Source: Oscillospiraceae bacterium (GTDB taxonomy: Bacteria > Bacillota > Clostridia > Oscillospirales > Ruminococcaceae). From it: a stretch of DNA of 55,430 nucleotides. Of the stretch, positions 2,128-18,667 are shown piece after piece. A program made the position numbers and the translations under genes. The number at the start of each line of letters is the position of its first letter. Position 1 is the first letter of the stretch. The stretch is taken from contig RKCM01000119.1 in the NCBI GenBank assembly GCA_014858325.1, positions 1 to 55,430 of the forward strand. The letters run 5' to 3'. The notes below the pieces were generated by a model. That model worked only from the letters and a program-made list of their open reading frames with translations, had not been told where the DNA came from and did not search any database.

Positions 2128-3537
2128 ATGTCGTTATGGAGCAGCAGAAAGCGGAAGAACGCCGCCGAACAGGAAGAGCGGGCCTGGAACCAGAACCGCC
2201 CGGCGGACTATGTGAGCCGACAGAAGGACGCCATGGACGCGGTGACGGGGCAGGTGGGCAGCGGCTTTGACTGGAACACCGGGGACGAGGCCTACCAGCA
2301 GTACCGCAAGCTGAGCGCGGCCAATGCACAGGCGGGCGCAGACAATGCCAGAGCCAACGCCGCCCTGCTCGCGGGCGGGTACGGCTCCAGCTATGCCGAC
2401 AGCGTGGCCCGGCAAGGGCAGCAGCAGACGCTGGCGAGCATTGACAGCGCCCTGCCCAGCCTGCGCGGGCAGGCTTTGACCGAATACCAGAACCAGCAGT
2501 CGAACCTTTTGAACGCCCTGAGCGGGATGGCCAGCACCGAAGCGCTGGACCGCTCCGCCTATGGGGCAAACCTGGCCCAGTACAACAACTGGAAGAACTT
2601 TTTGGCGAACCAGAGCGCCCAGGCCCGGACGGCGTACGCCAACGACAAGGCCAACGCCTGGAACTGGGTGAAAAACGTTGGCGAGGCGGTGCTGAATGCC
2701 TACGACACGTACAAGGGATTCAGCCAGCAGAAATGGCAGAATGAGTTTGCAGAGCGGCAGTACGAAGACCAGAAGAAGCAGAACATTTACAGCGAAGCGT
2801 ATGACCTGTATGGCAGGGGCGCAACCACTGCCGCCGACCAGCTGCTGGAGCCCTACGGCGTGACCTCGGAGATCTTCCGAAACATGAACGAGGGAAACAC
2901 GCAGTACTCGCTGGAGGACCAGATCGGCGGGCTGAAGCTGGCAAGCTCCCTGGCGGCGGCAGGCCAAACGGGTGCGGCCCAGTGGGTGGCCAGCAGCTAC
3001 GGCTTGCCGGAAGGCATCCTCAACTACAATCTGCCGACGAGCAGCACGAGAAGCAGCGGCTCCGGCGGCAGCCGTTCGAGAAGCTCCGGCACGAGCAGCA
3101 GCGGGAGCGGGTGGACCAACAGCCAGCTGCGCGGCATTGCCAGCGATTTTTCCAAGATGGACGGAAGCGAGCCACTGTACAACTATTACAAGCAGGTGCT
3201 GACGGACGCCGGGTGGCTGGATGCGGATACAGGAACGGACGCGGGAACGGATGCACCCACGCAGAGCCGCTATACCGGGCCCAGCGTGGGTGCTTTGACG
3301 GACCTGATGATGGGCAGCAAGTGGGGGCTGCCGAACAATGCGCTGGCGCAGAAAGGCACAAACAGCGCAAAAGGCAACACCAGCCCCAGCAGCAAGTATG
3401 ACCTGCCCACACAGCTGGCGAAGAACTACGCCAAGAAGGGATACAGCGCATGGGCCATCATGAACAATATGCACGCGAACGGATACACGGACGATGAAAT
3501 TGCACAGGCACTGGAAAATGCGGGGGTGAAATACTAA
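2128..3537 (+). CDS. Putative internal virion/DNA transfer protein, N-terminus paralogous to 1383..2108
   Basis: GGAGG RBS; AYQQYR..GGYGSS motif; Ser/Gly-rich linker; stop abuts next ATG (TAAATG). Confidence 0.6.
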   Translation: MSLWSSRKRKNAAEQEERAWNQNRPADYVSRQKDAMDAVTGQVGSGFDWNTGDEAYQQYRKLSAANAQAGADNARANAALLAGGYGSSYADSVARQGQQQTLASIDSALPSLRGQALTEYQNQQSNLLNALSGMASTEALDRSAYGANLAQYNNWKNFLANQSAQARTAYANDKANAWNWVKNVGEAVLNAYDTYKGFSQQKWQNEFAERQYEDQKKQNIYSEAYDLYGRGATTAADQLLEPYGVTSEIFRNMNEGNTQYSLEDQIGGLKLASSLAAAGQTGAAQWVASSYGLPEGILNYNLPTSSTRSSGSGGSRSRSSGTSSSGSGWTNSQLRGIASDFSKMDGSEPLYNYYKQVLTDAGWLDADTGTDAGTDAPTQSRYTGPSVGALTDLMMGSKWGLPNNALAQKGTNSAKGNTSPSSKYDLPTQLAKNYAKKGYSAWAIMNNMHANGYTDDEIAQALENAGVKY

Positions 3538-6500
3538 ATGGCATGGACAGCGGAAAAAGTTAAGGCGATGCGGGAAAGTGACCCCGCGAAAGCGGCACAG
3601 AGCGACGGGTGGACGGCAGAGAAGGTGCGGGCCATGCGCACCAAGACGCCGACGGCCGCGGTGCAGCGCACTGCGCCGACCGCAGCTGCGGCCCCTGTGG
3701 CCGATGCCGCGCCCTATGACGAGGCTTTCAGCCGTTACGGTAAGCTGGCCCAGAAGTTTAAGGCGGGCACAGAGGCGCTGGAACAAAAGAGCGACCGACT
3801 GGACGCACTGAACCAGTGGTACGACGACCCGCGCAACCAGCAGCTGGTGGCCGACCTGACGGCGAAGAAGGACCCCTTTACCACCTACGCCCAGCAGGGC
3901 ACCAGCCGGAACGCGGCCAGTGCCCCGGCCCCGCTGCGCCTGATGGGCAACTCGAACTACGGCCTGCCGACCACGCCGACCACCGAAAGCAAGTACACGG
4001 ACAAGCAGCTGGAAAAGCGTGGCTACAGCGCCGGAGAGATCGGGCAGGGGCGGCAGTACCTGAAGGAGATCAACGAGATCCCGGAGGCGAAGCAGCAGGC
4101 CCGCCGCATCCTGAACACGGCGGGCGGCATTGCGGACACGGTGGAAGCGGCTCCGCTGCTGGCCGGAGAATACATCGTGCAGGCGGGCAGGAACTTTGCA
4201 AAGAGCGCGGCGAACCGTAAGGCGCTGGAAGCGGAAGTGGCCCAGAGCCCCCGGGAGAAAAACCTTTATGAAGCGCTGCTGGAAACGGACATGGACTACC
4301 AGCCCAAGTACAGCATCGGCGACCTGCTGCAGCAGGGCTTTACCCGGGACGAGATCGACAGCATGAAAGCCCGCATTGCCGGAACGGAAGCCAAAGACAG
4401 CATCGACCCGGAGCAGAGCCTGGGCTACCAGATCTACAACCGGGGCCAGAAGCTGAATGCTGCGGCCCAGAGCGGACTTGGCCCGGCGGCCAAAGCGGCC
4501 CAGGGCATTGTGAGCAGCGCGGCGGAGAACCTTGTGGTGGGCTCGGTGAACCCGGCGCTGGTGCTGCCTGTGCTGAGCGCCCAGGGCGCAGCGGAAGCCA
4601 TGGGCCAGAGCGTGGAGAAGAACGAAAGCGCCGGCAAGGCGTTGGCCGGGGGCCTTGCAAAGTTTGGCGCTGGCTGGGCCATCAACAGCGTGGGCGCGGC
4701 CGACCTTGCCCGGAGCATGGGCTCGGACTACGCCAAGGACACGATGGCCGGGCAGATCGCGGACTGGGTGCGGGGGCTGGCCGGAGACGGGACCCTTGCG
4801 CAGAATTACCCAGCGGTGGCCAATGCCCTCTCCGGCGGCATCGACAATGCCATGCAGGCCTTTGTGGAGACCTATGCCGACCAGGCCATTGACGCGGCGC
4901 TGGGCGACGAAGAAGCAGCCCGGACCATGTTTAACAAGGACACCTTCCTGACGGCGTTGGAGAGCGGCCTTTCCGGCGGCGCTTCGGGCGCGCTGGGCGG
5001 TGCCGTGGGCACCGGGCTGGGGGCGATGCGAGAAAGAGCTGCACGGGCAGAGGCAGCCGAGCAGGCACAGGCAGAAGATGCCCGGCAGCGCAAGGCGTGG
5101 GAACGCAGCCTGGAACCGGGCGAGGCTGTGGCTTTGGCAGCGGGCTCGCCCTCTCAGACGGCTGACGCCGCCAACACGGAGCAGGATGCTGTGGGGCGCA
5201 TGAACCGCGAAGCAACGGAAACTGCCGGGAATGAGCGTGTGAACGAGAACCCGGCGGTGCAGCAGTTTGCTGAGGATGCTGCGGAGGACAGCCTGACGGG
5301 AAAGACCATTCGGCTGTTTGCACCTGAAGCCGGAAATGAAGCAAACCGTGCGGCTTTTGAAGAGGCCTACGGAGTGCAGCTGCCCGGCACGGCCGCTGCG
5401 ACCCGCCGGATGCTGCGCGACATTGCGACACAGCAACAGGCGACGCCGAACGCCGAAGCGCAGATCCCGGCCGGAAATGCGGAAAGCGGAAACAAAAGTG
5501 CGGATACTGTGCAGGAAACTGCACTTTCCGTCAGAAAAAGCCCGGAAAACGTGAGAAATACGCCGGAAACCGGGATGAACACAGAGCCCGCTCGGGTGGA
5601 AGCGCAGCCGCAAATGCAGGCTGTGGAGAACCCCGGGGAAACCGTTGAAAATGCGGCAGTTGAGAATGCCCCGATGCGGGAGACTTACGGGCTGGAAGCG
5701 CCGAAGACCCAGGAACAGAAAGCGTACTACACCGAGCAGAAGATGCGCGGCTGGGACGTGAGCGAGAAAGCGGCCAAGCACCTGAGCCAGCAGCTGCCGA
5801 AAGACGTGAACGCGGACACCTATGTAGCGGCAGCATCCAGCCTGTACCGTTTGGGCCAGATGGAGGACGTGGATACCTTTGACAAGGCCCTCCGGCTGGC
5901 GGGCAGTGAGAACGCCCTGGGCCTGAACGTGAATGAGGTGCTGAGCCAGACCACCGGGCGAAATGCTTTGGAGCAGGCCTACCTTTACGGCAAGGGCGAA
6001 CGGGAAGCCCGCGCGGAACGGATGCAGCAGCTGGGCGGTGCCCTGGGCCCCCAGAGCACCAGCGGCGAGGGCATGACCTACTACAAGGGAACGGTGCGAG
6101 AGATGGACTCTGTGGGGAGCCGGATCATCCAGCTGAACGCGCAGGGAACCGGCACCGATGCGGTGCTGAAGAACGTGCTAAACGGCCCGGACGGGGCACC
6201 GAACCCCAACGTGAAAGCCTATGTGGATACCGAGACGGCTCGCATCTTCTTCGGCGACCGGGCGGAGAACGTTTTCCAGACCGTGCTGCACGAGGATTAC
6301 CACTGGTACAACACGCTGGACAGCGAGGGCGCGAAGACCTTACAGGATCATGCGCTGCAATATCTGGCCAAGAGCAGCGGCTACGAGAACATTGACGAGC
6401 TGATCCGGGCCAAGATGGGCGACTATGCGGCCCAGAAGCTGACCTATGAGCAGGCGGCGGAAGAGCTGGTGGCCGATGCATGGGGCGGCATTTTTGACAG

Positions 6501-9500
6501 CGAGGAGAGTTTCCGGCGGTGGGCACAGTTCCAGCGGGAGCAGGCCGAGAAAAACGCAGGCAAGGCCGGGGCCATCCACAAGGTGATGCAGCAGGTGAAG
6601 ACCCTGCTGGAGAACATCCTCTCGAAAGCCAAGGAAGTGCTGCGGATGGATCCCGAAAATGCTGCCGCCCAGAAAGCCCGGCGGCTTGCTGAGGCAGAAA
6701 AGCGGGCCTTGCAGGAGGAATACTTTGCTCACGCCGAAAAAGCCATGGACAACCTGCGCAGTGCAAAAGAAAACGCCGCAGACCTCAAAAATGAGAGTGC
6801 GGCGGAAGGACGGGGCGTGAGGTTCCAGCTACAAGAAGGAGAAGAAACTCTTGAAAAACAACTGAATCGAAATCTTTTAAGGCTGGAACAGATGAGCCCG
6901 GTGATTGAAATTACAGGGAAAGAAATTGCATACGGTGCAACCAGTAAAGAAAACGCTGAAAACATCGTGCGCTTCTTTGAATCGGTCGGCGGAAAAGTAG
7001 AACGTGATGGATTTGGTGTGATCGAGCTGACTCGCAAGGGAGCAAAAGCAACCGTACAGCACGGCAATGGCCCGGCGAAACAAATTGCGGCAGCGGCGAT
7101 TCCTGATGTTATCCGTTATGGCGAACAGATCGGCTTTGTAGAGAATTGGAAAGGCCGGGGGTATAACACATATACATTTGTAGCGCCGGTCGTGGTGGCT
7201 GGAACAAAAATCTATGAGGCGGTCGTTGTAAATGAATACCGCAGTACAAAGCAAGGAAATAAGTTTTATGTCCACGAAGTGTGCGGTTCTGATGGAAGTC
7301 TGTTAGTATTGGATGATGCAGGACAGATAAAACAAAAGCAGGAAAGCGCTGACACGGTACTCAAAACCGAGGAGGGCGGTGAACGCCCGAGCTTTCCTGC
7401 TAATAGAATTATAACACAGAACGATGCCCCTGTAAAGAAAAACACCCGCTTTCAGATGGCAAGCCCTGTGGAAGTGAACAGCGAAAAAGAGCTGGTGGCG
7501 GTGCACAACCTGACCGAAGAAAATCTGCGGGAAGCGCTGGAGCTGGGCGGGATGCCCTCGCCCTCCATTGCCGTGGTAAAAGCACAGGCGGGACACAGTA
7601 AATATGGCCCCATCTCGCTGGTGTTTGGCCCGGACAGCATTGACCCGCAGGCCAACCGCGCCAACCGGGTGTACGGCTCGGATGCCTGGACGCCGACCAG
7701 GCCGAACGTGGAGTATGCAGTAAACGGAAAGGCCCTGACGGCCTTTGAAAAAGCCATCTACAACGCCAGCGAGGACGCGTTTGAAGGAAAATTTGTCAAC
7801 AGTGCGGCACTGCAGCGTATGGGCGTGGGGGAAGTGAGCAGCGAAAACAGGACGGAACTTGCCCAGAAGCTGCAGCGGGAGACCGCAGTGCAGCTGGCGT
7901 ACCTGAAAGAAAAGGGCCAAACCGTAGTGCCGATATACAAAACCGAACGGGAAACGTTTGACAGCATGGGAAACGACGTGCTGGAAAAGGTGGTGGAACG
8001 CGCAGGAGCGGACGAGATTAAAAACGCTTTCGAGAACGGCGATTTTGACCTGCTGGATAAGCTGGCCGATAAAGCGGCGGACGCACTGGAAGAAAAGTAC
8101 ACCCATGGGGCGCTGGCAGGCCAAAACAAGCGTTGGCAGATGCGCATTGACAAGCTGCGCAAGGAGAACCGCGGGCGGTTGTATGGACTGATCGAGCACG
8201 CCTACAAGATGTTGACGGATACCAGCGACGGCAAGGCTATGCTGGACGTGGAGGCAACGCGAGAGGCCATCCGTGAAGCAGCCCCGGAAGCACAAGTGGA
8301 ACGGTGGGCCTACGACAAGCTGGGGGATGTGCTGGGCGAGAAAGGAATCCGCAACCAAAAGGATCGCTTTACCAGAGGCGGCAAGAGCCGCAGCTTTGCT
8401 GAGCTGCACAACCCTTATACACTGGAAAATCTGGTGGCAGCCATGAACGCCCAGAACGCGCGGGGACAGGACGTGTGGGGACTCTCAGCTTCGACCTTGA
8501 TGTCCACCACGACTGCCGAATACAAAAACCTCGACGAAGTGCGGGCGGACAAAGGCCGCTTGCAGCAGATGCCGGAGGAAGAGTATAAGACCCTGCTGGA
8601 AAAGGCAGACAACCAGATCGAGGCTGTGATCAGCAAGCTGCGCAGCGAGACCGAAGCCCACGCTGACAACAGCTTTGAAGAGCGGGAAATTCTTGGCGAC
8701 ATTTTGCTGCGGGCGGCGCAGGGCAGCCAGACCACGGCGGCCATCGGCAAGGCTTTTGCCAAAGAGGGCTACAGCATCAGCAAGGATACGGCGGCACTCA
8801 TCCGAAAGCTGTACAAAGACGTGGCAGCCATCCCCACCGGGTACTTTGAGGCAAAGCCCCAGCGGGCGGTTGGTTTTGACGAAGTGAAAGCGGCCATTCT
8901 GCCGGACAATGCCAGCCCCACGCTGGTGGACAGCCTGAGAGAGCACGGCGTTGCCGTGCAGCAGTACAAGGCCGGAGATGAGGCACAGCGGGCAGAGCTT
9001 TTGAACAAGGTGCCCAACGTCCGTTTCCAGATGGCGGAGAACGCCGACAAGGAAGCGCGAAAGAACACCCAGCGGCAGGCCAGCCGGGCCATTGCGGAGC
9101 GGGACGCCTCGCTGAAGACGCTGATGGACTTTTTCGGCATCACACGAGGGGTGCGCATCTCGGACGACAGTATGGAAAGCCTGGCACTGAAGACCATCTA
9201 TGCGGCGGGTGCCAAGGGCAAGATGAACGCCACCGAGTTTGCCGGGAAGCTGCGGCCGCTGGTGGAGTACATGAAGGCCGACGGGGCCGATATGAGCAAG
9301 GCCCAGAGCATGGCCGAGGTGCTGGCAGGCGAGGCGCTGGACCATGCCACGACCCGCAACACCGAACTGTGGGACCAGTACCCGGAACTGCACAGCCTGA
9401 GCTACACCGTGGCCAAAGACGGGCAGGCCGAAAAGGAACTGGTGCGGCGGTACGGCAGCTGGGGCGCGGCAGTGAAGGACGCCCGGAGCCACGGGGTGCA

Positions 9501-12500
9501 GCTGCGGCGGGAAGCCGGAACCCGCGACGGCAACCCGGCGGAACAGTATGAGAGCATCGTGAACGACACCCGGGCCGTGGGCGGCGTGAAGGACGGAACG
9601 GCGGCGCTGTTCCGGCACGCGGCGGAAAGCGCCGGAGTGGCAGGGGCCTCCAGCATGGAGAGCACCGAGTGGCTGGATGTGCTGATGAACGTGCACGACG
9701 CCATCAAGCCCCGGATGATGAGCCGCTTTGCCGACGCGGCCGAATACGAGGACGCCAAGGTGGAACTGGCTGGCCAGATGCTGGGCAACGTGATGGATCT
9801 GAACGAGATGAAGGACGTGCAGGCCATTTTTGACGGCATCCAGAAGCACAACCGGGCCGTGGCCGCAGCAGCGGCCGGCAGCGAAGAGCGGGCCGCCGAG
9901 GTGCTGAAGGGTTTGAAGAGCGTGCAGAAGGAACAGACGAGGCTGTTCAACCAGAAGCTGCGGGAAAACAGCCGCCCGGCTGCCCAGAGCGAGGACGCCC
10001 GGGCAGCGGCACAGCAGGAGAAGCGGAACCGACAGGCCGAAAAGCTGCTGGACCAGAATCTTGACACGCTGGGTGTGGACATCTCCAACATAGGGAACCT
10101 GAACGAAAAGCTGGAAGTGCTGCGGGAGACCTACGAGCGGGAATGGAAGGCCGAGAAAAAGCGGCTGCGGGATGAGCGGCGGCAGATGCTGGATGAGATC
10201 GCGCTGGAACGGCGGAAGATGAAAGCGGAGAATGCCGAACTGGCCCGGCAGGTGGCAGGCGAACAGCGCCGTGCCGACCGGGCGGAGCGGCAGCTCATCT
10301 TCCAGGAGGACGAGATGCGGGAATGGGATCTGGAGAACCAGCAAAAGGCCGCCGAGTGGTACCAGAAGCAGGCCGAGAAGAATGCCATTGCCATCGAGGT
10401 GGAGCGCCAGCAGCGGGACGAAGACATTGCCGTGGCCAAGGCGCTGGCCGAGAAGCGGGCACAGAAAGCCCGGGACGCCCGGAAGGCAGACGAGCTGAAG
10501 CGGAGCATCCGCAGCAATGCGGCGGCGCTGAACCAGATGATCCTGCGGCCCAAGCCGGGGAAGTATGTCTCCAAGGCGCTGATGACCCAGGCCATGGAGG
10601 TGGCGAAGCTTGCAGATGTGACCATTTTGAACCAGAACACCGTGAACCGGCTGGCGGCGCTGGAGACCAGCATCCGGGAAGCAGGCGGCAGCAAGGACAG
10701 TACGGTGGTCTCGGCCATGAGCGAGGACTGGAAGCAGAGTGGCATTGTGGAGACCCTTGCCGCCCTGCGGGCCGACCTGACGGCCAGCAAGGAAGCAAAG
10801 CTGGCCAGGCTGAACGAGCAGCTGGCTGAGGCGAAAGCCCTGCCCGACAGTGAAAAGGCCCGGGCCCTGCAGGACCGACTGAAGATGCGCATCCGGGAGA
10901 CGGAGAACAAGACCTATCTGCCTTTGACGGTGGACCAGCTGCGGGCGTTGAAAGCCATTACCACCAGCGCGCTGCACGTGATCCGCAATGCCAACAAGAC
11001 CCTGAGCCTGGAAAAGGCACAGGAAGTGGACGCCATGGCCCTGACGGCGGCCCACGAGGTGGGAAAGGCCAAGGGCAATGAGCCCGGCGAAAAGTGGAGC
11101 GGCGTGCGCGGGGCGCTGACCCGGTACAACCTGGATATGCTGGGCGGTGTGCGGGTGTTTCGTATGCTGGGCGGCTATACCAAAAACGGCCAGATGGAGC
11201 AGCTGGCCACCATGCTGAACGATGGCCAGCGAAAGCAGACGCAGATCCTGGTAGAGGGCGAAGCGTTGTTTGACAACGTGACGGGCAAAAGCCACGTGAA
11301 GGAGATGGAACGGTTTGCAGGCCCGGGTGCAGACCTTGTGGACGTAGGCCTGAAAGACACCAAGGGCAACGCAGTGCCCCTGACCCATGCCCAGCTGTGC
11401 AGCCTGTATATGCACCTGAAGAATGCCGACAGCCGGAACCACCTGCTGACGGGAGGTCTGACCCTGCCGGACGCGAAGCTCTACCACAAGGGGAAGATCG
11501 AGGAGGCCTACCAGAAGGGCCAGAACGTGATGCTGGGTAACCTGATGAATGCCGACGGGACCCCCATGGCCGACACCATCCTGCAAACGGTGGAGAGGGC
11601 CATGACCGACTACGACCGGGCATGGTGCGAGGATATGAAGGATTTCTTTGGACGGTACACCACCAACCTCATCAACGAGACCAGCCTGAAGCTGCTGGGC
11701 TACCAGCGGGCCACCGTGAAGGACTACTACCCCATTGCGGTGGACAAGACCCAGCTGGCTACGGAGATCGAGGGCCTGAAGCTGGACGCCACCATTGAGG
11801 GCCGGGGCTTTTTAAAAAACCGCCAGAAGAGCGCAAAGCCCATCCTGCTGGAAGAGTGCAGCAACGTGGTGCAGCGCAGCCTGCGGGATACGGCGGCCTA
11901 TGCGGGGCTGGCCGCACCTCTGCGGGACGTGCAGAAGGTGCTGAACAGTAGCGTGGAGACGGCAGAGAGCATCGGCATCCTGAAAAACAAAATCATCCAG
12001 GAGCACTGGGGAAAGGATGCGGTGAACTACATCGACTACCTGCTGACGGACCTGCAATCCGCCCAGCGTAAGCGGAAAGACAGCATTGGCCGGGGGATGG
12101 GCAGGCTGCGGGGGAACTACGCCGGGGCCATCCTGACGCTGAACCCGGGCGTGGCCATCGCCCAGGCGGCGTCCCTGCCGACGGCGGGGGCGGTGCTGGG
12201 GGCCGATACCATGGCAGCGGTGGTGCCCTTTGTGAAGAACTTCTCCGGCAAGCAGCGGGCATCGCTGGAGACGGAGATCGCCCAGCACGGGGACGCCCTG
12301 CTGCGCTACCGTATGCGGGGCGCACAGGTGGGAGAGCTGAGTTCCATCGGCGTGGACAGGGGCCTTGCCCAAAACGCCATGGACAAGCTGCCGAAGAGCC
12401 TGACCGGCTGGATTAACAGCATAGACGAGATCACGGTGGCAGCGCTGTGGGAAGGGGCGAAACGGTATGTGGAGCACCACGAAACTTTGCAGAAAGGCAG

Positions 12501-13980
12501 CGAAGCTTACTGGGAGGCGGTAAATAAGACCTACCAGAAGGTGATCGAGGAAACCCAGCCCAACTACACCACCATGCAGCGGGCGGGCATCCAGCGCAGT
12601 GACAATGAGATCACCAAGGCATTGACCATGTTTACCACCCAGCGCTTCCAGAACTACGGCATCCTGGCCGATGCGATGGGCGACTACAAAGCGCAGAAAG
12701 CCCGGTACAAAGCGGACGCCAGCGCTGAGAACAAGGCCGAAGTGAAACGGGCGGGCAAGCAGCTGAACCGGGCCGTGACCAGCCAGCTGACCCAGACGGC
12801 GGTGTTTGCCCTGATGAAGATTGGCGCGGACTTCCTGCTCCACCGCTGGGACCGGGAACAGGACGAAAACGGCGACATCACGACCGCCAGCATGAGCAAG
12901 CGCTTCCTGGACCTGTATACCGAAAGCTTTGCGGGCAATTTCCTGTTTGGCTCGGAGCTGTACAGCCTGGTGGGCAACGCCATCAACGGCACGGATTACG
13001 ACGTGGTGAGCGCTACCAACATCAGCGCGGTGAACGATACCTTTGCGGCGGTAACAAAGTTTGCCGCTCTGCTGCGGAAGGACACCGGGGAGATGGACGA
13101 GGAAGAGCTGGCCAAGTACCACCAGAAGCTGATGAACGCAGGCATTGACGTGATCGAGTATGGCTTTGAACTGGCAGGCGTCCCCTTTGGCAACGCCGAA
13201 AAGATGGTGCGGGCCATGAAGAACTATGCGCAGGACGCTGTGAATCTGTACCACGGCGAGGGCTTTTCCCTGAACGGCGTGCCCGGCAGCGCCACGGGCC
13301 AGTACGACCGACTGTACAACGCCATCCAGAGCGGCGACAGCGAGGAGGCCCAGGCGGCGCTGGACAAGCTGAGTGCCATGGGCAAGGATGAAAAGACCAT
13401 CACCGGCCAGCTGAAAACCCGGCTGAAACAGTACGATGAGGACATTCTGGACGCTGCCAGGGCGAAGAATGCCGGTGACCTGGAAGCACGGAAGGACGCA
13501 AAGCAGGAGGTCTATGACCGGCTGTGCATGGCCTATGGTGTGAAGAAGCTGAACGAAAAGGGCGAGACCGACGAGGACAAGGCCCAGAGAGCCCGGTTCA
13601 GGGAACTCATTGATAAGGCGGTGGACGAAAAAGCCGAACAGCTGTACAAAGGCGGCGCGAGCGGTAGCGTGTACGACGACCTGGCCGAGGCGCTGGACTC
13701 CGGCCGGGCAAGGGATGTACAGGACGAAGTGGACCGCCTGCTGACAGCAGGCAAGAAACCTGACAGCCTGAAAACCAAGGTGACAAGCCTTGTGAAGGAG
13801 GAGTATCTGGCCGGAAACGACCGCGACCGGGAGAAGCTGGAAGCCATGCTGCTGAAGCTGACCGACGGGAACGGGAAACCTTTGTACGAGAAGAAAAACT
13901 TTGAGCAGTGGGTCAAGCAGGCCAAGAAACAGGCGGAGAAAAACGCGGGCACTGCCGACGAGTGGGCTGCACTGCGGTAA
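3538..13980 (+). CDS. Giant phage polyvalent (ejected) protein, 3480 aa: zincin HExxH peptidase, putative LPD3/BECR nuclease-like module, HNL...YFEAK module, long helical C-terminal region
   Basis: Uninterrupted ORF; HEDYH at 6289-6303 plus downstream EELVAD; RFQ(L/M) linkers at aa 1095, 1304 and 1829; architecture matches large polyvalent proteins of phages and conjugative elements. Confidence 0.85.
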   Translation: MAWTAEKVKAMRESDPAKAAQSDGWTAEKVRAMRTKTPTAAVQRTAPTAAAAPVADAAPYDEAFSRYGKLAQKFKAGTEALEQKSDRLDALNQWYDDPRNQQLVADLTAKKDPFTTYAQQGTSRNAASAPAPLRLMGNSNYGLPTTPTTESKYTDKQLEKRGYSAGEIGQGRQYLKEINEIPEAKQQARRILNTAGGIADTVEAAPLLAGEYIVQAGRNFAKSAANRKALEAEVAQSPREKNLYEALLETDMDYQPKYSIGDLLQQGFTRDEIDSMKARIAGTEAKDSIDPEQSLGYQIYNRGQKLNAAAQSGLGPAAKAAQGIVSSAAENLVVGSVNPALVLPVLSAQGAAEAMGQSVEKNESAGKALAGGLAKFGAGWAINSVGAADLARSMGSDYAKDTMAGQIADWVRGLAGDGTLAQNYPAVANALSGGIDNAMQAFVETYADQAIDAALGDEEAARTMFNKDTFLTALESGLSGGASGALGGAVGTGLGAMRERAARAEAAEQAQAEDARQRKAWERSLEPGEAVALAAGSPSQTADAANTEQDAVGRMNREATETAGNERVNENPAVQQFAEDAAEDSLTGKTIRLFAPEAGNEANRAAFEEAYGVQLPGTAAATRRMLRDIATQQQATPNAEAQIPAGNAESGNKSADTVQETALSVRKSPENVRNTPETGMNTEPARVEAQPQMQAVENPGETVENAAVENAPMRETYGLEAPKTQEQKAYYTEQKMRGWDVSEKAAKHLSQQLPKDVNADTYVAAASSLYRLGQMEDVDTFDKALRLAGSENALGLNVNEVLSQTTGRNALEQAYLYGKGEREARAERMQQLGGALGPQSTSGEGMTYYKGTVREMDSVGSRIIQLNAQGTGTDAVLKNVLNGPDGAPNPNVKAYVDTETARIFFGDRAENVFQTVLHEDYHWYNTLDSEGAKTLQDHALQYLAKSSGYENIDELIRAKMGDYAAQKLTYEQAAEELVADAWGGIFDSEESFRRWAQFQREQAEKNAGKAGAIHKVMQQVKTLLENILSKAKEVLRMDPENAAAQKARRLAEAEKRALQEEYFAHAEKAMDNLRSAKENAADLKNESAAEGRGVRFQLQEGEETLEKQLNRNLLRLEQMSPVIEITGKEIAYGATSKENAENIVRFFESVGGKVERDGFGVIELTRKGAKATVQHGNGPAKQIAAAAIPDVIRYGEQIGFVENWKGRGYNTYTFVAPVVVAGTKIYEAVVVNEYRSTKQGNKFYVHEVCGSDGSLLVLDDAGQIKQKQESADTVLKTEEGGERPSFPANRIITQNDAPVKKNTRFQMASPVEVNSEKELVAVHNLTEENLREALELGGMPSPSIAVVKAQAGHSKYGPISLVFGPDSIDPQANRANRVYGSDAWTPTRPNVEYAVNGKALTAFEKAIYNASEDAFEGKFVNSAALQRMGVGEVSSENRTELAQKLQRETAVQLAYLKEKGQTVVPIYKTERETFDSMGNDVLEKVVERAGADEIKNAFENGDFDLLDKLADKAADALEEKYTHGALAGQNKRWQMRIDKLRKENRGRLYGLIEHAYKMLTDTSDGKAMLDVEATREAIREAAPEAQVERWAYDKLGDVLGEKGIRNQKDRFTRGGKSRSFAELHNPYTLENLVAAMNAQNARGQDVWGLSASTLMSTTTAEYKNLDEVRADKGRLQQMPEEEYKTLLEKADNQIEAVISKLRSETEAHADNSFEEREILGDILLRAAQGSQTTAAIGKAFAKEGYSISKDTAALIRKLYKDVAAIPTGYFEAKPQRAVGFDEVKAAILPDNASPTLVDSLREHGVAVQQYKAGDEAQRAELLNKVPNVRFQMAENADKEARKNTQRQASRAIAERDASLKTLMDFFGITRGVRISDDSMESLALKTIYAAGAKGKMNATEFAGKLRPLVEYMKADGADMSKAQSMAEVLAGEALDHATTRNTELWDQYPELHSLSYTVAKDGQAEKELVRRYGSWGAAVKDARSHGVQLRREAGTRDGNPAEQYESIVNDTRAVGGVKDGTAALFRHAAESAGVAGASSMESTEWLDVLMNVHDAIKPRMMSRFADAAEYEDAKVELAGQMLGNVMDLNEMKDVQAIFDGIQKHNRAVAAAAAGSEERAAEVLKGLKSVQKEQTRLFNQKLRENSRPAAQSEDARAAAQQEKRNRQAEKLLDQNLDTLGVDISNIGNLNEKLEVLRETYEREWKAEKKRLRDERRQMLDEIALERRKMKAENAELARQVAGEQRRADRAERQLIFQEDEMREWDLENQQKAAEWYQKQAEKNAIAIEVERQQRDEDIAVAKALAEKRAQKARDARKADELKRSIRSNAAALNQMILRPKPGKYVSKALMTQAMEVAKLADVTILNQNTVNRLAALETSIREAGGSKDSTVVSAMSEDWKQSGIVETLAALRADLTASKEAKLARLNEQLAEAKALPDSEKARALQDRLKMRIRETENKTYLPLTVDQLRALKAITTSALHVIRNANKTLSLEKAQEVDAMALTAAHEVGKAKGNEPGEKWSGVRGALTRYNLDMLGGVRVFRMLGGYTKNGQMEQLATMLNDGQRKQTQILVEGEALFDNVTGKSHVKEMERFAGPGADLVDVGLKDTKGNAVPLTHAQLCSLYMHLKNADSRNHLLTGGLTLPDAKLYHKGKIEEAYQKGQNVMLGNLMNADGTPMADTILQTVERAMTDYDRAWCEDMKDFFGRYTTNLINETSLKLLGYQRATVKDYYPIAVDKTQLATEIEGLKLDATIEGRGFLKNRQKSAKPILLEECSNVVQRSLRDTAAYAGLAAPLRDVQKVLNSSVETAESIGILKNKIIQEHWGKDAVNYIDYLLTDLQSAQRKRKDSIGRGMGRLRGNYAGAILTLNPGVAIAQAASLPTAGAVLGADTMAAVVPFVKNFSGKQRASLETEIAQHGDALLRYRMRGAQVGELSSIGVDRGLAQNAMDKLPKSLTGWINSIDEITVAALWEGAKRYVEHHETLQKGSEAYWEAVNKTYQKVIEETQPNYTTMQRAGIQRSDNEITKALTMFTTQRFQNYGILADAMGDYKAQKARYKADASAENKAEVKRAGKQLNRAVTSQLTQTAVFALMKIGADFLLHRWDREQDENGDITTASMSKRFLDLYTESFAGNFLFGSELYSLVGNAINGTDYDVVSATNISAVNDTFAAVTKFAALLRKDTGEMDEEELAKYHQKLMNAGIDVIEYGFELAGVPFGNAEKMVRAMKNYAQDAVNLYHGEGFSLNGVPGSATGQYDRLYNAIQSGDSEEAQAALDKLSAMGKDEKTITGQLKTRLKQYDEDILDAARAKNAGDLEARKDAKQEVYDRLCMAYGVKKLNEKGETDEDKAQRARFRELIDKAVDEKAEQLYKGGASGSVYDDLAEALDSGRARDVQDEVDRLLTAGKKPDSLKTKVTSLVKEEYLAGNDRDREKLEAMLLKLTDGNGKPLYEKKNFEQWVKQAKKQAEKNAGTADEWAALR
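6765..6804 (-). terminator. Antisense intrinsic terminator-like hairpin inside the polyvalent gene
   Basis: CGCCGCA (6774-6780) pairs with TGCGGCG (6798-6804), inner CTCA/TGAG stem; followed on the minus strand by TTTTCTTTT. Confidence 0.5.
7329..7401 (-). ncRNA. Candidate ~73-nt antisense structured RNA (three-way junction plus U-tract)
   Basis: 11-bp perfect closing stem (7391-7401 with 7337-7347), two internal hairpins, U-rich tail; +1 lies 7 nt after a consensus -10. Confidence 0.6.
7408..7436 (-). promoter_or_regulatory. sigma70/sigmaA-type antisense promoter inside the polyvalent gene
   Basis: Minus strand TTTACA-17 nt-TATAAT with TGn extended -10. Confidence 0.75.
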
Positions 13981-14003: not shown

Positions 14004-14040
14004 CAAAAGGGAGACACCCCGGCGGGGCGTCTCCCTTTTG
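14004..14040. terminator. Bidirectional intrinsic terminator after the polyvalent gene
   Basis: CAAAAGGGAGAC...GTCTCCCTTTTG inverted repeat with A and T tracts. Confidence 0.85.
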
Positions 14041-18542: not shown

Positions 18543-18587
18543 AAACTCCCCGAAAACTGGCTTGGAAAGCCAACTTTCGGGGAGTTT
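18543..18587 (-). terminator. Hairpin terminator 3' of tRNA-Thr
   Basis: AAACTCCCCGAAA...TTTCGGGGAGTTT inverted repeat, T-rich on the minus strand. Confidence 0.75.
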
Positions 18588-18591
18588 GATG

Positions 18592-18667
18592 TGGAGCTAC
18601 TGATCCGATTCGAACGGACGACCTGCTCATTACGAGTGAGCTGCTCTACCGGCTGAGCCACAGTAGC
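18592..18667 (-). tRNA. tRNA-Thr(CGT), probable prophage attachment site
   Basis: GCTACTG/CAGTAGC acceptor stem, anticodon arm GCTCA-CT CGT AA-TGAGC, GTTCGAATC T-loop, encoded CCA; 76 nt. Confidence 0.97.

What the first reader, a model, noticed from the sequence alone, without database searches (positions are those of the whole stretch)
7329..7436. Hidden antisense small-RNA gene inside the polyvalent ORF: candidate RNA antitoxin or tRNA-mimic decoy for the adjacent nuclease module
Seen on the minus strand: TTTACA-17-(TGT)TATAAT, a 6-nt discriminator, then +1 at 7401 on the first base of AGCAGGAAAGC-UC-GGGCG(UUCAC)CGCCC-UCCU-CGGU(UUUGAGU)ACCG-UGUCAGC-GCUUUCCUGCU-UUUGUUUU. This is a perfect 11-bp closing stem, two internal hairpins and a U-tract, overprinted on the protein linker between the putative nuclease and the next RFQ joint, so it would travel with the cassette. 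The 7-nt loop UU-UGA-GU has anticodon-loop geometry (U33, purine 37; UGA = Ser). Known: BECR folds include anticodon nucleases, and type I and III TA systems use RNA antitoxins. Inference: a constitutive sRNA protects the lysogen or producer cell from the virion-delivered effector by antisense pairing or as a decoy. I am not aware of a description of this arrangement.
Basis: partly seen in the sequence, partly recalled or inferred. Interest (0 to 1): 0.9.

Follow-up and report, generated by a model that had tools for sequence, protein, structure and literature searches.

The report
Antisense small RNA tied to LPD3
Inside a giant phage virion-protein gene, the opposite strand carries a small, strongly conserved RNA gene with its own promoter and stop signal, and the same hidden arrangement follows the same protein domain (LPD3) in many unrelated phages, which points to an undescribed RNA partner of that domain.

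Summary
On the minus strand, TTTACA-17-TGT-TATAAT (7436..7408) is followed 6 nt later by a 65-nt three-way-junction RNA plus U-tract (7401..7329). It lies in the 3480-aa polyvalent ORF (3538-13980).

In about 100 related phage loci:
- the closing stem covaries;
- synonymous sites reach their minimum for the 7.2 kb of the gene examined here;
- the -10 box stays TATAnT while the encoded amino acids change.

The unit is coupled to the upstream LPD3 domain (6946-7269), not to the Pfam nuclease PBECR5 (7444-8115), which occurs with and without it. A composite detector (promoter + closing stem + U tail) fires just after LPD3:
- antisense strand: 51 of 61 viral loci and 18 of 21 loci from 19 other genomes of the class;
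- sense strand: 0 of 82.

The hits fall into 33 sequence-unrelated RNA classes. TTGACA is the -35 in 22 of 33 and the spacer is 17 nt in 32 of 33. A Pseudomonas phage (LKA5) shows a weaker version.

Expression is untested. The most likely role is an RNA antidote or regulator of the LPD3 module, acting by antisense pairing. A protein-binding decoy or tRNA-Ser mimic remains possible but unproven. No Rfam family and no paper found describes it.

The parts
7431..7436 (-). -35 hexamer TTTACA (relatives carry TTGCTT, TTGTTT or TTGATT at the same 17-nt spacing)
7408..7416 (-). extended -10, TGT-TATAAT (TGC-TATACT or TGT-TATAGT in relatives; only position 5 varies)
   Evidence: It is spelled with rare codons: ATA is 4% of Ile codons and ACA 8% of Thr codons in this ORF.
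7329..7401 (-). predicted 73-nt small RNA; +1 inferred at A7401, 3' end inferred within the U-tract
   Evidence: Fold. Covariance-model hit at 117 bits, one copy in the genome. No expression data.
7391..7401 (-). closing stem P1, 5' arm AGCAGGAAAGC
   Evidence: 8 of 11 P1 pairs show changes on both sides across relatives
7337..7347 (-). closing stem P1, 3' arm GCUUUCCUGCU
7374..7388 (-). hairpin H1, GGGCG-UUCAC-CGCCC
   Evidence: Register shift in the second group of relatives; a G.U wobble in L014.
7355..7369 (-). hairpin H2, CGGU-UUUGAGU-ACCG (YUNR, anticodon-loop-like)
   Evidence: Stem invariant in 24 of 24 distinct rows. Compared with tRNA-Ser(UGA) anticodon stem-loops.
7329..7336 (-). 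U-tract UUUGUUUU directly after P1 (terminator-like)
   Evidence: Missing only in L011, L013 and L030, where a second structured module with its own U-tract follows.
6946..7269 (+). LPD3 domain of the polyvalent protein, the domain the RNA unit is coupled to
   Evidence: Pfam PF18798, E 1.2e-09. Coupling shown.
3538..13980 (+). 3480-aa polyvalent virion protein ORF that hosts the unit
7444..8115 (+). PBECR5 nuclease-like domain; a neighbour, not coupled to the RNA
   Evidence: Pfam E 4.7e-83; modular swaps
7447..7455 (+). RFQ joint between the linker and PBECR5

Best explanation
A real small-RNA transcription unit is written on the strand opposite the polyvalent virion-protein gene. It occupies the linker just after the LPD3 domain.

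Inferred mechanism:
- A near-consensus sigma-70-type promoter starts transcription at the first base of a long closing stem.
- The RNA is about 65-73 nt here and 46-90 nt in other phages. It folds into a stem enclosing one or two hairpins and ends at a U-tract.
- The unit is inherited together with LPD3 through domain shuffling, across sequence-unrelated versions.
- I therefore read it as an RNA partner of the LPD3 module, either an antidote or a regulator.
- The most likely action is on its own complementary mRNA, as with type I antitoxins and phage antisense RNAs: contact through an exposed YUNR loop or bulge, duplex formation, then cleavage or decay of the polyvalent mRNA. This would keep the LPD3-bearing protein silent in lysogens or early in infection.

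Shown: conservation, covariation, strand bias and coupling to LPD3.
Inferred: transcription, the RNA ends, and the whole mode of action.
For: 1. Window anatomy and fold.

2. Relatives.
- 100 of 109 non-duplicate sources carry the element.
- The covariance model hits 52 of 52 distinct variants, one copy each, always antisense to the ORF.

3. Covariation.
- 94.2% of cells are paired.
- 8 of 11 P1 pairs change on both sides.
- The covariation score is 0.405, against 0.159 +/- 0.014 in shuffles (0 of 500 reach it) and 0.04-0.13 with slid partners.
- The two main groups have unrelated but complementary stems (AGCAGGAAAGC/GCUUUCCUGCU versus AGAAAGCAGC/GCUGCUUUCU) that encode different peptides.

4. 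Synonymous diversity.
- It is the lowest of 527 windows over 7.2 kb: 0.10 against 0.318 +/- 0.069. In the second data set it is 0.06-0.13 against 0.36.
- Amino-acid identity in the same stretch is lower than in the flanks.

5. Promoter: 52 of 52 full-length variants keep a -35 at 17 nt, TGn, TATAnT and 6 nt to P1. The residues encoded across the box vary: S, T or I, and A or T.

6. Strand.
- Single-sided stem changes give G.U on the minus strand: L008, L042, L025, L080, L127 and L014 types.
- Over 33 classes the minus-strand fold is the more stable in 27 (mean -5.3 kcal/mol). G.U pairs number 91 of 758 on the minus strand against 35 of 701 on the plus strand.

7. Coupling to LPD3.
- The composite detector fires on the antisense strand within 320 nt after LPD3 in 51 of 61 viral loci.
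- Controls: 0 of 61 on the sense strand, 0 of 60 inside LPD3, 3 of 60 upstream, 1 of 60 further downstream.
- In genomes of the class it fires in 18 of 21 loci, against 0 of 21 on the sense strand.
- The -35 is TTGACA in 22 of 33 classes and the spacer is 17 nt in 32 of 33.

8. Different RNA bodies on the same plan.
- L015 carries another RNA body (type B) behind the same promoter. L011, L013 and L030 carry A and B in tandem with one U-tract.
- L128-L130 and phage LKA5 show the same plan without nucleotide homology.

9. Background from one review (PMC6562991, passages read): type I antitoxin RNAs of prophages pair with toxin mRNAs, use YUNR loops and recruit RNase III.
Against: - No transcript has been seen. 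The only runs holding the stretch are assembled contigs that cannot show strand or ends.
- The plus strand folds about as well in the window itself.
- An antisense RNA 3.8 kb inside a 10.4-kb ORF cannot block translation initiation, so the pairing model needs mRNA cleavage or decay.
- A pure cis-antisense role does not explain why the unit always sits after LPD3 rather than anywhere in the gene.
- It also does not explain why short unpaired motifs (GUCUUGA, CUGAAC) are kept independently of reading frame.
- The detector was designed after I had seen the pattern. It misses 10 of 61 and 3 of 21 loci.
- The viral loci were selected by two LPD3 peptide patterns, and 23 of the 61 carry the window's own RNA type.
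- The covariation alignment was fitted to the model, and much of the signal comes from one split between two groups.
Confidence: 0.55

Rival explanations
1. RNA immunity by binding. LPD3 is an injected RNase-like effector, and the small RNA neutralises the protein directly, as a type III-like antitoxin or pseudo-substrate. In the window's clade it would do so by imitating the anticodon stem-loop of tRNA-Ser(UGA). Lysogens and producer cells would be protected.
For: - The RNA is strictly linked to LPD3 through shuffling.
- Short unpaired motifs are conserved at nucleotide level regardless of frame. GUCUUGA is read as F/I/L-K-T in 17 loci and as F-Q-D in L184. CUGAAC is read in all three frames.
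- tRNA-Ser(UGA) anticodon stem-loops are GCAGU-CUUGAAA-ACUGC in 4 same-genus genomes and CUAGU-CUUGAAA-ACUAG in a fifth. Two genomes of the same order carry CCGGU-CUUGAAA-ACCGG and GUGCG-CUUGAAA-CGCAU.
- The second group's H2 is UCGGU-CUUGAAU-ACCGA, a 5-bp stem with a 7-nt loop.
- Other classes carry GCAGUCUUGAA, CUAGUCUUGAU or CCGGUCUUGAA.
- The LPD3 model (pLDDT 81) has its best fold matches among RNase toxins: TA toxin 7vd7 Z 5.1, CdiA-CT 7m5f and 6cp9 Z 5.0, BrnT 4.2, RelE 3.9, colicin D 3.5, colicin E5 domain 3.4.
- L011-type phages carry two RNA modules in tandem, like arrays of immunity genes.
Against: - All Z scores are below the level at which the tool says a shared fold can be trusted. 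Foldseek found nothing at E <= 0.001.
- The motif occurs in only 11 of 33 classes.
- In most classes it sits in a 7-nt bulge beside a hairpin, not in an anticodon-like hairpin loop.
- The CUGAAC classes would place C at position 37.
- ARAGORN and Rfam see nothing tRNA-like.
- The hosts of the viral contigs are unknown, so mimic and host tRNA could not be paired.
- The window's own MAG lacks an assembled tRNA-Ser(UGA).
- Neither LPD3 toxicity nor RNA binding has been tested.
Confidence: 0.2
2. The act of transcription matters, not the RNA. A strong promoter followed at once by a terminator hairpin would serve as an antisense roadblock or interference device against read-through into the late operon. 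Alternatively it could be a local priming or R-loop site.
For: - In many classes the whole RNA is little more than one long imperfect hairpin plus a U tail directly after +1: 46-60 nt in L186, L191, L160 and L181.
- The promoters are near consensus.
- RNA sequences are free to diverge completely between classes.
Against: - It does not explain the constant position after LPD3 or co-inheritance with it.
- It does not explain the internal hairpins and conserved unpaired motifs.
- It does not explain tandem modules transcribed together.
Confidence: 0.12
3. The selected object is on the plus strand or in DNA: an mRNA structure that slows ribosomes at a domain border, or an inverted repeat that serves recombination between modules. 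The minus-strand promoter likeness would then be incidental.
For: - The plus strand of the window folds at -31.9 kcal/mol, z -5.25.
- The element sits exactly at module borders where homology between relatives breaks.
- Template switching at imperfect palindromes can create apparent compensatory changes. This mechanism is recalled from the literature; I did not check it here.
Against: - The promoter is kept in 52 of 52 variants with varying amino acids and rare codons.
- TTGACA at exactly 17 nt occurs in 22 of 33 unrelated classes.
- A U-rich tail follows on the minus strand only.
- Wobble pairs and fold stability favour the minus strand.
- There are 0 of 82 sense-strand units.
Confidence: 0.06

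Closest known systems
Type I toxin-antitoxin RNA antitoxins of prophages (B. subtilis RatA/txpA, SR4/bsrG, SR5/bsrE, SR6/yonT; E. coli SymR/SymE named from recall)
   Same: A small, structured, cis-encoded antisense RNA with its own constitutive-looking promoter and terminator. It overlaps the 3' part of the region coding a presumably harmful protein. It has exposed YUNR motifs and a prophage location (PMC6562991, passages).
   Different: - The partner is not a small stand-alone toxin gene. It is one domain (LPD3) in the middle of a 3480-aa ORF.
- The whole RNA gene, promoter included, is overprinted on a translated linker.
- Toxicity of LPD3 is unknown.
- No expression or RNase III data exist.
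Phage antisense RNAs such as lambda OOP (77 nt, antisense to cII) and P22 Sar (recalled, not read here)
   Same: A short antisense RNA made from a phage promoter and ended by a hairpin plus U-tract, acting on the overlapping mRNA.
   Different: Those RNAs lie in regulatory regions of single phage lineages. This one lies inside a late virion-protein gene and recurs, with unrelated sequences, wherever one protein domain occurs.
Type III toxin-antitoxin RNAs (ToxI/ToxN; recalled)
   Same: An RNA that could neutralise an endoribonuclease-like protein and is inherited with it.
   Different: - ToxI is a tandem array of repeats upstream of, and in the same sense as, the toxin gene, and is processed by the toxin.
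- Here there is one non-repeated antisense unit per locus, or two unlike modules in tandem in L011.
tRNA genes and tRNA-like decoys of phages
   Same: In the window's clade a 4-6-bp stem carries a 7-nt loop with Y32-U33-UGA-R37. This matches the loop of tRNA-Ser(UGA) from same-genus genomes.
   Different: There is no cloverleaf, no acceptor or T arm, and no ARAGORN or Rfam hit. The motif is absent from 22 of 33 classes.
Polyvalent proteins of phages and conjugative elements (Iyer et al. 2017, PMC5512222, passages read)
   Same: The host gene is a typical member. It has an HExxH peptidase-like motif, LPD3, PBECR5, a virion-gene context and extensive mosaicism.
   Different: In the passages I retrieved by term search, that paper treats LPD3 as a domain of unknown function. 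None of those passages mentions an RNA gene inside such proteins. I did not read the whole text or its supplements.

Membership tests
tRNA / tRNA-like RNA | Cloverleaf recognised by a tRNA finder or by the Rfam tRNA clan | tested here: not met
   ARAGORN finds only tRNA-Thr at 18592-18667 in the window. Rfam at E <= 10 shows nothing at 7329-7436. Nothing appears on the units of 20 other loci.
tRNA / tRNA-like RNA | Anticodon-stem-loop geometry: 5-bp stem and 7-nt loop with U33 and purine 37 | tested here: inconclusive
   Met in the window (4-bp stem, UUUGAGU) and in the second group (5-6 bp, CUUGAAU). The predicted loop closes to 3-5 nt in L014 (fold) and in L042, where I read C-G loop ends off the sequence. 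In other classes the motif lies in a bulge or is absent.
Type I toxin-antitoxin system (RNA antitoxin) | Small RNA encoded antisense to, and overlapping, the toxin's coding region, with its own promoter and terminator | tested here: inconclusive
   Promoter, body and U-tract are predicted and conserved. No transcript data.
Type I toxin-antitoxin system (RNA antitoxin) | The partner protein is toxic when expressed, and the RNA lowers its synthesis | not testable with these tools
   Needs expression of 6820-7330 with and without the RNA.
Type III toxin-antitoxin system | Antitoxin RNA built of tandem direct repeats processed by the toxin | tested here: not met
   One model hit per locus and none elsewhere. 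The tandem modules in L011 are unlike each other.
BECR-fold RNases (for the LPD3 domain) | [quoted passage not shown] | tested here: inconclusive
   Model pLDDT 81, pTM 0.79. Foldseek finds no hit at E <= 0.001. By my reading of the titles, about 15 of the top 50 VIA-align rows are RelE-type, BrnT, MqsR, colicin D/E5, RegB or CdiA-CT toxins, but the best Z is only 5.1. The PDB sequence profile finds nothing.
Rfam families (any described RNA) | Match to a curated covariance model | tested here: not met
LPD3 (Pfam PF18798), for the coupled domain | Score above Pfam's gathering cut-off of 27 bits | tested here: met
   38.8-40 bits in the window. 28.4 bits for L011, 48-59 bits for L186, L226 and L228, and 52.6 bits for phage LKA5.

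The most novel reading that the evidence does not exclude
LPD3 is a virion-delivered RNase-type effector, and the overprinted antisense gene encodes its RNA immunity factor. The RNA would be a pseudo-substrate that binds and disarms the domain. In the window's clade it would do this by imitating the anticodon arm of tRNA-Ser(UGA), which would then be LPD3's target. Effector domain and RNA immunity gene would form one mobile cassette inside polyvalent ORFs. Phages such as L011 would stack two immunity RNAs, as polymorphic-toxin loci stack orphan immunity genes.
Probability: 0.2. Interest if true: 0.95.

Novelty: new variant of a known kind. Interest (0 to 1): 0.8.

Why it matters
If the RNA is made, this is a previously unnoticed class of phage small RNAs. 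Its genes are hidden on the antisense strand of translated linkers, and it is inherited as a unit with one protein domain of unknown function.

- It would give LPD3, a widespread orphan domain of injected polyvalent proteins, its first functional handle.
- It would show that protein-domain shuffling can carry an RNA gene along.
- It would warn that conserved 'peptide motifs' in such linkers (SIAQ, NNIPQ, x-V-N/K) are in fact promoter boxes read backwards.
- The family is directly testable. The prediction fixes the start, length and strand of the RNA. A weaker version exists in cultivable Pseudomonas phages of the LKA5/F116 group.

Tried and rejected
RNA evidence
- The one search for runs gave three small-share holders, all assembled contigs.
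- Laid on 6400-8400 they cover 7205-7432 (X1), 7213-7372 (X2) and 7267-7403 (X3, which then diverges like a relative).
- Contigs cannot show strand, ends or transcription. The covered stretch is also the part most conserved among relatives, so I draw nothing from it.

Other searches that led nowhere
- Rfam: no family.
- Phage GenBank records: by DNA, only one unannotated 8-kb clone, MT836973.
- Covariance model R2 over 151 genomes of the family: only the window's own genome, plus one 28.7-bit hit that I did not follow.
- Asking for the records behind metagenome loci, to see whether PBECR5 lies elsewhere in those proteins: the records are not held.
- PDB by sequence profile for LPD3: nothing. 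Foldseek: nothing at E <= 0.001.
- Our earlier findings: nothing by place, words or sequence.

Ideas rejected
- A dedicated antitoxin of PBECR5. The RNA persists where PBECR5 is replaced or cleanly absent (L083-L094, L087). PBECR5 occurs without the RNA body in L015, L028, L029 and L002.
- An anti-Shine-Dalgarno role for the CCUCCU stretch. It is not conserved in the second group.
- An internal start codon for PBECR5. The M after RFQ is L in most relatives.

A recalled lead
- My first lead to tRNA-Ser came from a recalled E. coli sequence. I replaced it with tRNA genes found by ARAGORN in related genomes.

Literature searches (listings and abstract starts seen only, no full text)
- 'polyvalent protein' + antisense: 7 papers, none about this.
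- PBECR / polyvalent proteins.
- Antisense RNA, prophage, late operon.
- LPD3 / PF18798: 29 papers, none on an RNA.
- Hollowayvirus, F116, antisense.
Full report
**Setting**

The window starts inside a prophage. The prophage genes here comprise an internal virion protein, a 3480-aa ORF at 3538-13980, and tail-fibre genes up to about 17000. They are followed by tRNA-Thr (18592-18667) and chromosomal genes (PhoH, Era, RecO, MutS2). The window is the first 55 kb of contig C8 of a 236-contig, 78%-complete assembly.

The giant ORF is a polyvalent virion protein in the sense of Iyer et al. 2017 (PMC5512222; passages read). Its features are:
- an HEDYH motif at aa 918;
- LPD3 at nt 6946-7269;
- PBECR5 at nt 7444-8115;
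- four RFQ sites, including the one at 7447-7455.

The finding lies in the linker between LPD3 and PBECR5. The Pfam-recognised nuclease sits on the other side.

All quoted letters are present. The minus strand reads as follows:
- TTTACA at 7436..7431;
- a 17-nt spacer with TG at 7416..7415;
- TATAAT at 7413..7408;
- 6 nt, then A7401 opening an 11-bp stem that closes at 7337;
- two hairpins inside the stem;
- UUUGUUUU at 7336..7329.

The 73-mer folds at -30.1 kcal/mol, z -4.35. The complement folds equally well. The promoter is the best of 9 hits in 20 kb and the only one inside the ORF. An 11-bp inverted repeat by itself is unremarkable: the window has 7 such loci, and simulations give 1.4 +/- 1.4 k-mer hits. 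The case therefore rests on comparison with relatives.

**Close relatives**

Protein-guided scans returned:
- 27 viral loci;
- 2 genome loci;
- 74 metagenome loci;
- 26 further viral loci, of which 22 repeat earlier contigs.

Of 109 non-duplicate sources, 100 carry the element, in 53 distinct versions. A covariance model built from 7 of them finds one copy in each of 52 of 52 distinct variants. Every copy is antisense to the ORF, and there is none elsewhere in the loci, the window or the genome.

*Covariation.* On the model-fitted alignment, 94.2% of cells pair and 8 of 11 closing-stem pairs change on both sides. The covariation score is 0.405, against 0.159 +/- 0.014 in shuffles (0 of 500 reach it) and 0.04-0.13 for slid partners. 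Two caveats apply. The alignment is fitted to the model, and most of the signal comes from one deep split between two groups. That split is nonetheless plain in the raw alignment: AGCAGGAAAGC/GCUUUCCUGCU in one group, AGAAAGCAGC/GCUGCUUUCU in the other. Three further double changes occur within the second group (AGAAAACAGC, AGAAAGCAAC, AGAAAGUGGC types). Meanwhile the encoded peptides differ (KQESA...SFPA against KKESS...KLLSK).

*Synonymous constraint.* Synonymous diversity collapses exactly at this place. It is 0.06-0.13 against 0.36 overall in 46 sequences. It is the minimum of 527 windows across 7.2 kb in 18 sequences (0.10 against 0.318 +/- 0.069). Amino-acid identity in the same stretch is lower than in the flanks, so the constraint acts on nucleotides.

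**The promoter is conserved as a promoter**

In 52 of 52 full-length variants there is a -35 at exactly 17 nt, TGn, TATAnT and 6 nt to the first stem base. The counts are:

| -35 | number of variants |
|---|---|
| TTGCTT | 37 |
| TTTACA | 9 |
| TTGTTT | 5 |
| TTGATT | 1 |

- Only position 5 of the -10 varies (A, C or G). This changes the encoded residue (I, S or T).
- The box is spelled with rare codons: ATA is 4% of Ile codons, CAA 9% of Gln, ACA 8% of Thr and AGT 12% of Ser in this ORF.
- The window's group lost 21 nt of linker, and another hexamer (TTTACA) then took the 17-nt position.

**Which strand**

Single-sided stem changes give G.U on the minus strand, which would be A.C on the plus strand. 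This holds in the L008, L042, L025, L080, L127 and L014 types. The one true A.C sits at a recombination joint in L030.

**The RNA goes with LPD3, not with PBECR5**

| Loci | Arrangement |
|---|---|
| L083-L094 | LPD3 + RNA, then an unrelated module after the RFQ joint |
| L087 | PBECR5 cleanly absent, RNA intact |
| L028, L029 | A MuF_C domain replaces LPD3; no RNA |
| L015 | A divergent LPD3 (assigned by likeness to L011's, which Pfam scores at 28.4 bits), the same promoter, then a different RNA |
| L011, L013, L030 | Window-type body without a U-tract, then a type-B module with one |

- The L015 RNA is 72 nt: closing stem AGAGACCUCCG/CGGAGGUCUCU, a UUCG hairpin and a U-tract (-30.8 kcal/mol, z -4.4).
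- The type-B closing stem in L011 (AUAGAACCCUUCGG/CCGAAGGGUUCUAU) differs from L015's but is again perfectly complementary.
- This tandem arrangement explains the three 'lost' U-tracts.

**Generality**

*First look.* Three LPD3 relatives at 32-40% identity show the same plan with no nucleotide homology: TTGACA-17-TATATT or TTGCGG-17-TATAAT, then a closing stem with hairpins and a U-rich tail.

*The detector.* I then wrote a composite detector with these requirements:
- -10 TAnnnT with at least 4 of 6 matches, -35 with at least 3 of 6, sum at least 8, spacer 16-18 nt;
- 5-9 nt to a closing stem of at least 7 bp spanning 40-135 nt;
- MFE per nucleotide at or below -0.30 kcal/mol;
- at least 4 T in the next 8 nt.

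*Viral contigs.* It was run on 61 LPD3 loci from viral contigs.

| Region scanned | Loci with a unit |
|---|---|
| Antisense strand, 320 nt after LPD3 | 51 of 61 |
| Sense strand, same stretch | 0 of 61 |
| Antisense, inside LPD3 | 0 of 60 |
| Antisense, upstream of LPD3 | 3 of 60 |
| Antisense, further downstream | 1 of 60 |

Twenty-three of the 61 carry the window's own RNA type. Of the other 38, 28 are positive. The misses are L154, L155, L174, L175, L177-L180, L184 and L193. Two of them (L184, L175) show a promoter under looser rules.

*Genomes of the class.* A Pfam-guided search of 401 genomes of the class (399 scored) found LPD3 in 20, including the window's own. In the 21 loci of the other 19 genomes the unit is present in 18. 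L232, L233 and L239 have none, and L242 is doubtful. The sense strand gives 0 of 21.

*All classes together.* There are 33 sequence classes:
- TTG opens the -35 in 33 of 33, and TTGACA is the -35 in 22 of 33;
- the spacer is 17 nt in 32 of 33;
- the minus-strand fold is more stable than its complement in 27 of 33 (mean -5.3 kcal/mol);
- G.U pairs are 91 of 758 on the minus strand against 35 of 701 on the plus strand.

*Limits.* The detector was built after I had seen the pattern. It tolerates G.U in the closing stem of the strand tested. The viral loci were drawn with two LPD3 peptide patterns.

*Another phylum.* LPD3 of Pseudomonas phage LKA5 (Pfam 6.4e-14) represents 31 Pseudomonas phage records among the 32 hits. 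It is followed by an antisense 73-nt hairpin (-41 kcal/mol, z -5.0) with a U-rich tail. Its promoter is weaker, TTGCGG-16-TACACT, and falls below my detector's threshold.

**Motifs, and the tRNA idea**

No single motif is universal: GUCUUG occurs in 11 of 33 classes and UGAAC in 13 of 33. Where present, the motifs are kept at nucleotide level. GUCUUGA is read as F/I/L-K-T in 17 loci but as F-Q-D, in another frame, in L184. CUGAAC is read in all three frames.

Both motifs begin with YUNR, the U-turn signature of antisense recognition loops (PMC6562991, passages). This fits a pairing mechanism. It is also what makes the loop look like an anticodon loop.

- The window's assembly lacks tRNA-Ser(UGA); 39 tRNA rows were found.
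- Five same-genus genomes have it, with arms GCAGU-CUUGAAA-ACUGC (4 genomes) or CUAGU-CUUGAAA-ACUAG (1 genome).
- Two genomes of the same order have CCGGU-CUUGAAA-ACCGG and GUGCG-CUUGAAA-CGCAU.
- The second group's H2 is UCGGU-CUUGAAU-ACCGA.
- Other classes carry GCAGUCUUGAA, CUAGUCUUGAU or CCGGUCUUGAA.

*Assessment.* The likeness is real but not decisive, for four reasons:
- in most classes the motif lies in a bulge beside a hairpin;
- other LPD3 subfamilies lack it;
- the hosts of the viral contigs are unknown;
- neither ARAGORN nor Rfam sees anything tRNA-like.

**What LPD3 might be**

A model from 25 sequences has pLDDT 81 and pTM 0.79. The alignment has invariant or nearly invariant K, H, K, W-K-x-R-G-Y, T and Y-x-H-E positions. 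Foldseek finds nothing at E <= 0.001.

The Foldseek-independent search puts RNase toxins at the top and, by my reading of the row titles, in about 15 of the 50 rows:

| Match | Z |
|---|---|
| TA toxin 7vd7 | 5.1 |
| CdiA-CT 7m5f and 6cp9 | 5.0 |
| BrnT | 4.2 |
| RelE | 3.9 |
| MqsR | 3.7 |
| colicin D | 3.5 |
| colicin E5 domain | 3.4 |
| RegB | 3.3 |

By the tool's own guidance, Z values under 8 may reflect only a common arrangement. A BECR-like RNase fold for LPD3 is a lead, not a result.

**Reading**

I put about 0.85 on a genuine antisense transcription unit. That rests on conserved sequence and architecture; no transcript has been seen. The strict linkage to LPD3, through swaps of both neighbours and across unrelated sequences, argues that the RNA serves that module.

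- Best explanation (0.55): antisense pairing with its own mRNA. This is the simplest mechanism and has close precedents in prophage type I systems.
- First rival (0.2): direct binding or decoy action on an RNase-like LPD3, possibly as a tRNA-Ser mimic in this clade. This better explains the linkage and the frame-independent motifs. It is the most novel reading the evidence allows.
- Weaker rivals: transcriptional interference without a functional RNA, and a plus-strand or DNA-level structure.

**Expression, and prior description**

Expression could not be tested. The served runs were assembled contigs covering 7205-7432, 7213-7372 and 7267-7403, which say nothing about strand or ends.

I found no description of such a unit in:
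- Rfam;
- the five literature searches;
- the passages retrieved from the polyvalent-protein paper;
- this scan's earlier notes.

I did not see that paper's supplements or the full text of the other papers.

Noticed in passing
window 6770-6812 (minus strand): At the first RFQ joint, a GC-rich imperfect hairpin CGCCGCA...UGCGGCG is followed by UUUUCUUUUGC on the antisense strand. L015 and L104 carry a cleaner version (CGCCGCGCUCUC-GGUUUU-GAGAGCUGCGGCG). No promoter-like site lies upstream. It encodes an ALKTES-like peptide that resembles the VLKTEE of the finding's linker.
   Followed up: partly
L183 and L185, about 695-771 (antisense to the ORF): A second promoter + stem + U-tail unit (TTGGAA-17-TATAAT, 13-bp closing stem) lies about 230 nt upstream of the LPD3 match. 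It follows a domain with no Pfam hit.
   Followed up: partly
window 18543-18667: tRNA-Thr(CGU) on the minus strand has a 20-bp terminator hairpin directly behind it, next to the last phage-like ORFs. This is a likely prophage boundary or attachment site. The window begins at the contig end, so the other prophage end is missing.
   Followed up: no
window 6289-6303: An HEDYH (HExxH) motif at aa 918 of the polyvalent protein may be the zincin-like peptidase that polyvalent proteins are proposed to use for self-processing. No Pfam hit covers it. RFQ sites occur at 6820, 7447, 9022 and 12643.
   Followed up: no
linkers after LPD3 in many loci (e.g. L133, L225, L229, L237, L246): Recurrent 'peptide motifs' such as NNIPQ, DNIPQ, SIAQ and TISEL, followed 5-6 residues later by x-V-N/K, are the -10 and -35 boxes read on the coding strand (AxT-ATA..., T-GTC-AA). 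A protein-only analysis would take them for a conserved linker motif.
   Followed up: partly
L036 about 2320-3819: In this metagenome contig the PBECR5 homology stops at residue 273 of the 392-aa query (window 6940-8115). The ORF then continues into an unrelated sequence. This is either a domain swap inside PBECR5 or a chimeric assembly.
   Followed up: no
window 14004-14040: An inverted repeat of about 12 bp (loop about 13 nt) lies just after the stop codon of the polyvalent gene. It is a probable terminator of the sense transcript.
   Followed up: no
L241 and L244 (genomes G174, G510): The LPD3-bearing ORFs contain stop codons just after or within the domain, so they are probably decayed prophages. 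The antisense unit is nevertheless still detected.
   Followed up: no
G054:C48:24361-24411 (L132): A weak 28.7-bit, 51-nt hit of the RNA model in another genome of the family. It is probably spurious.
   Followed up: no
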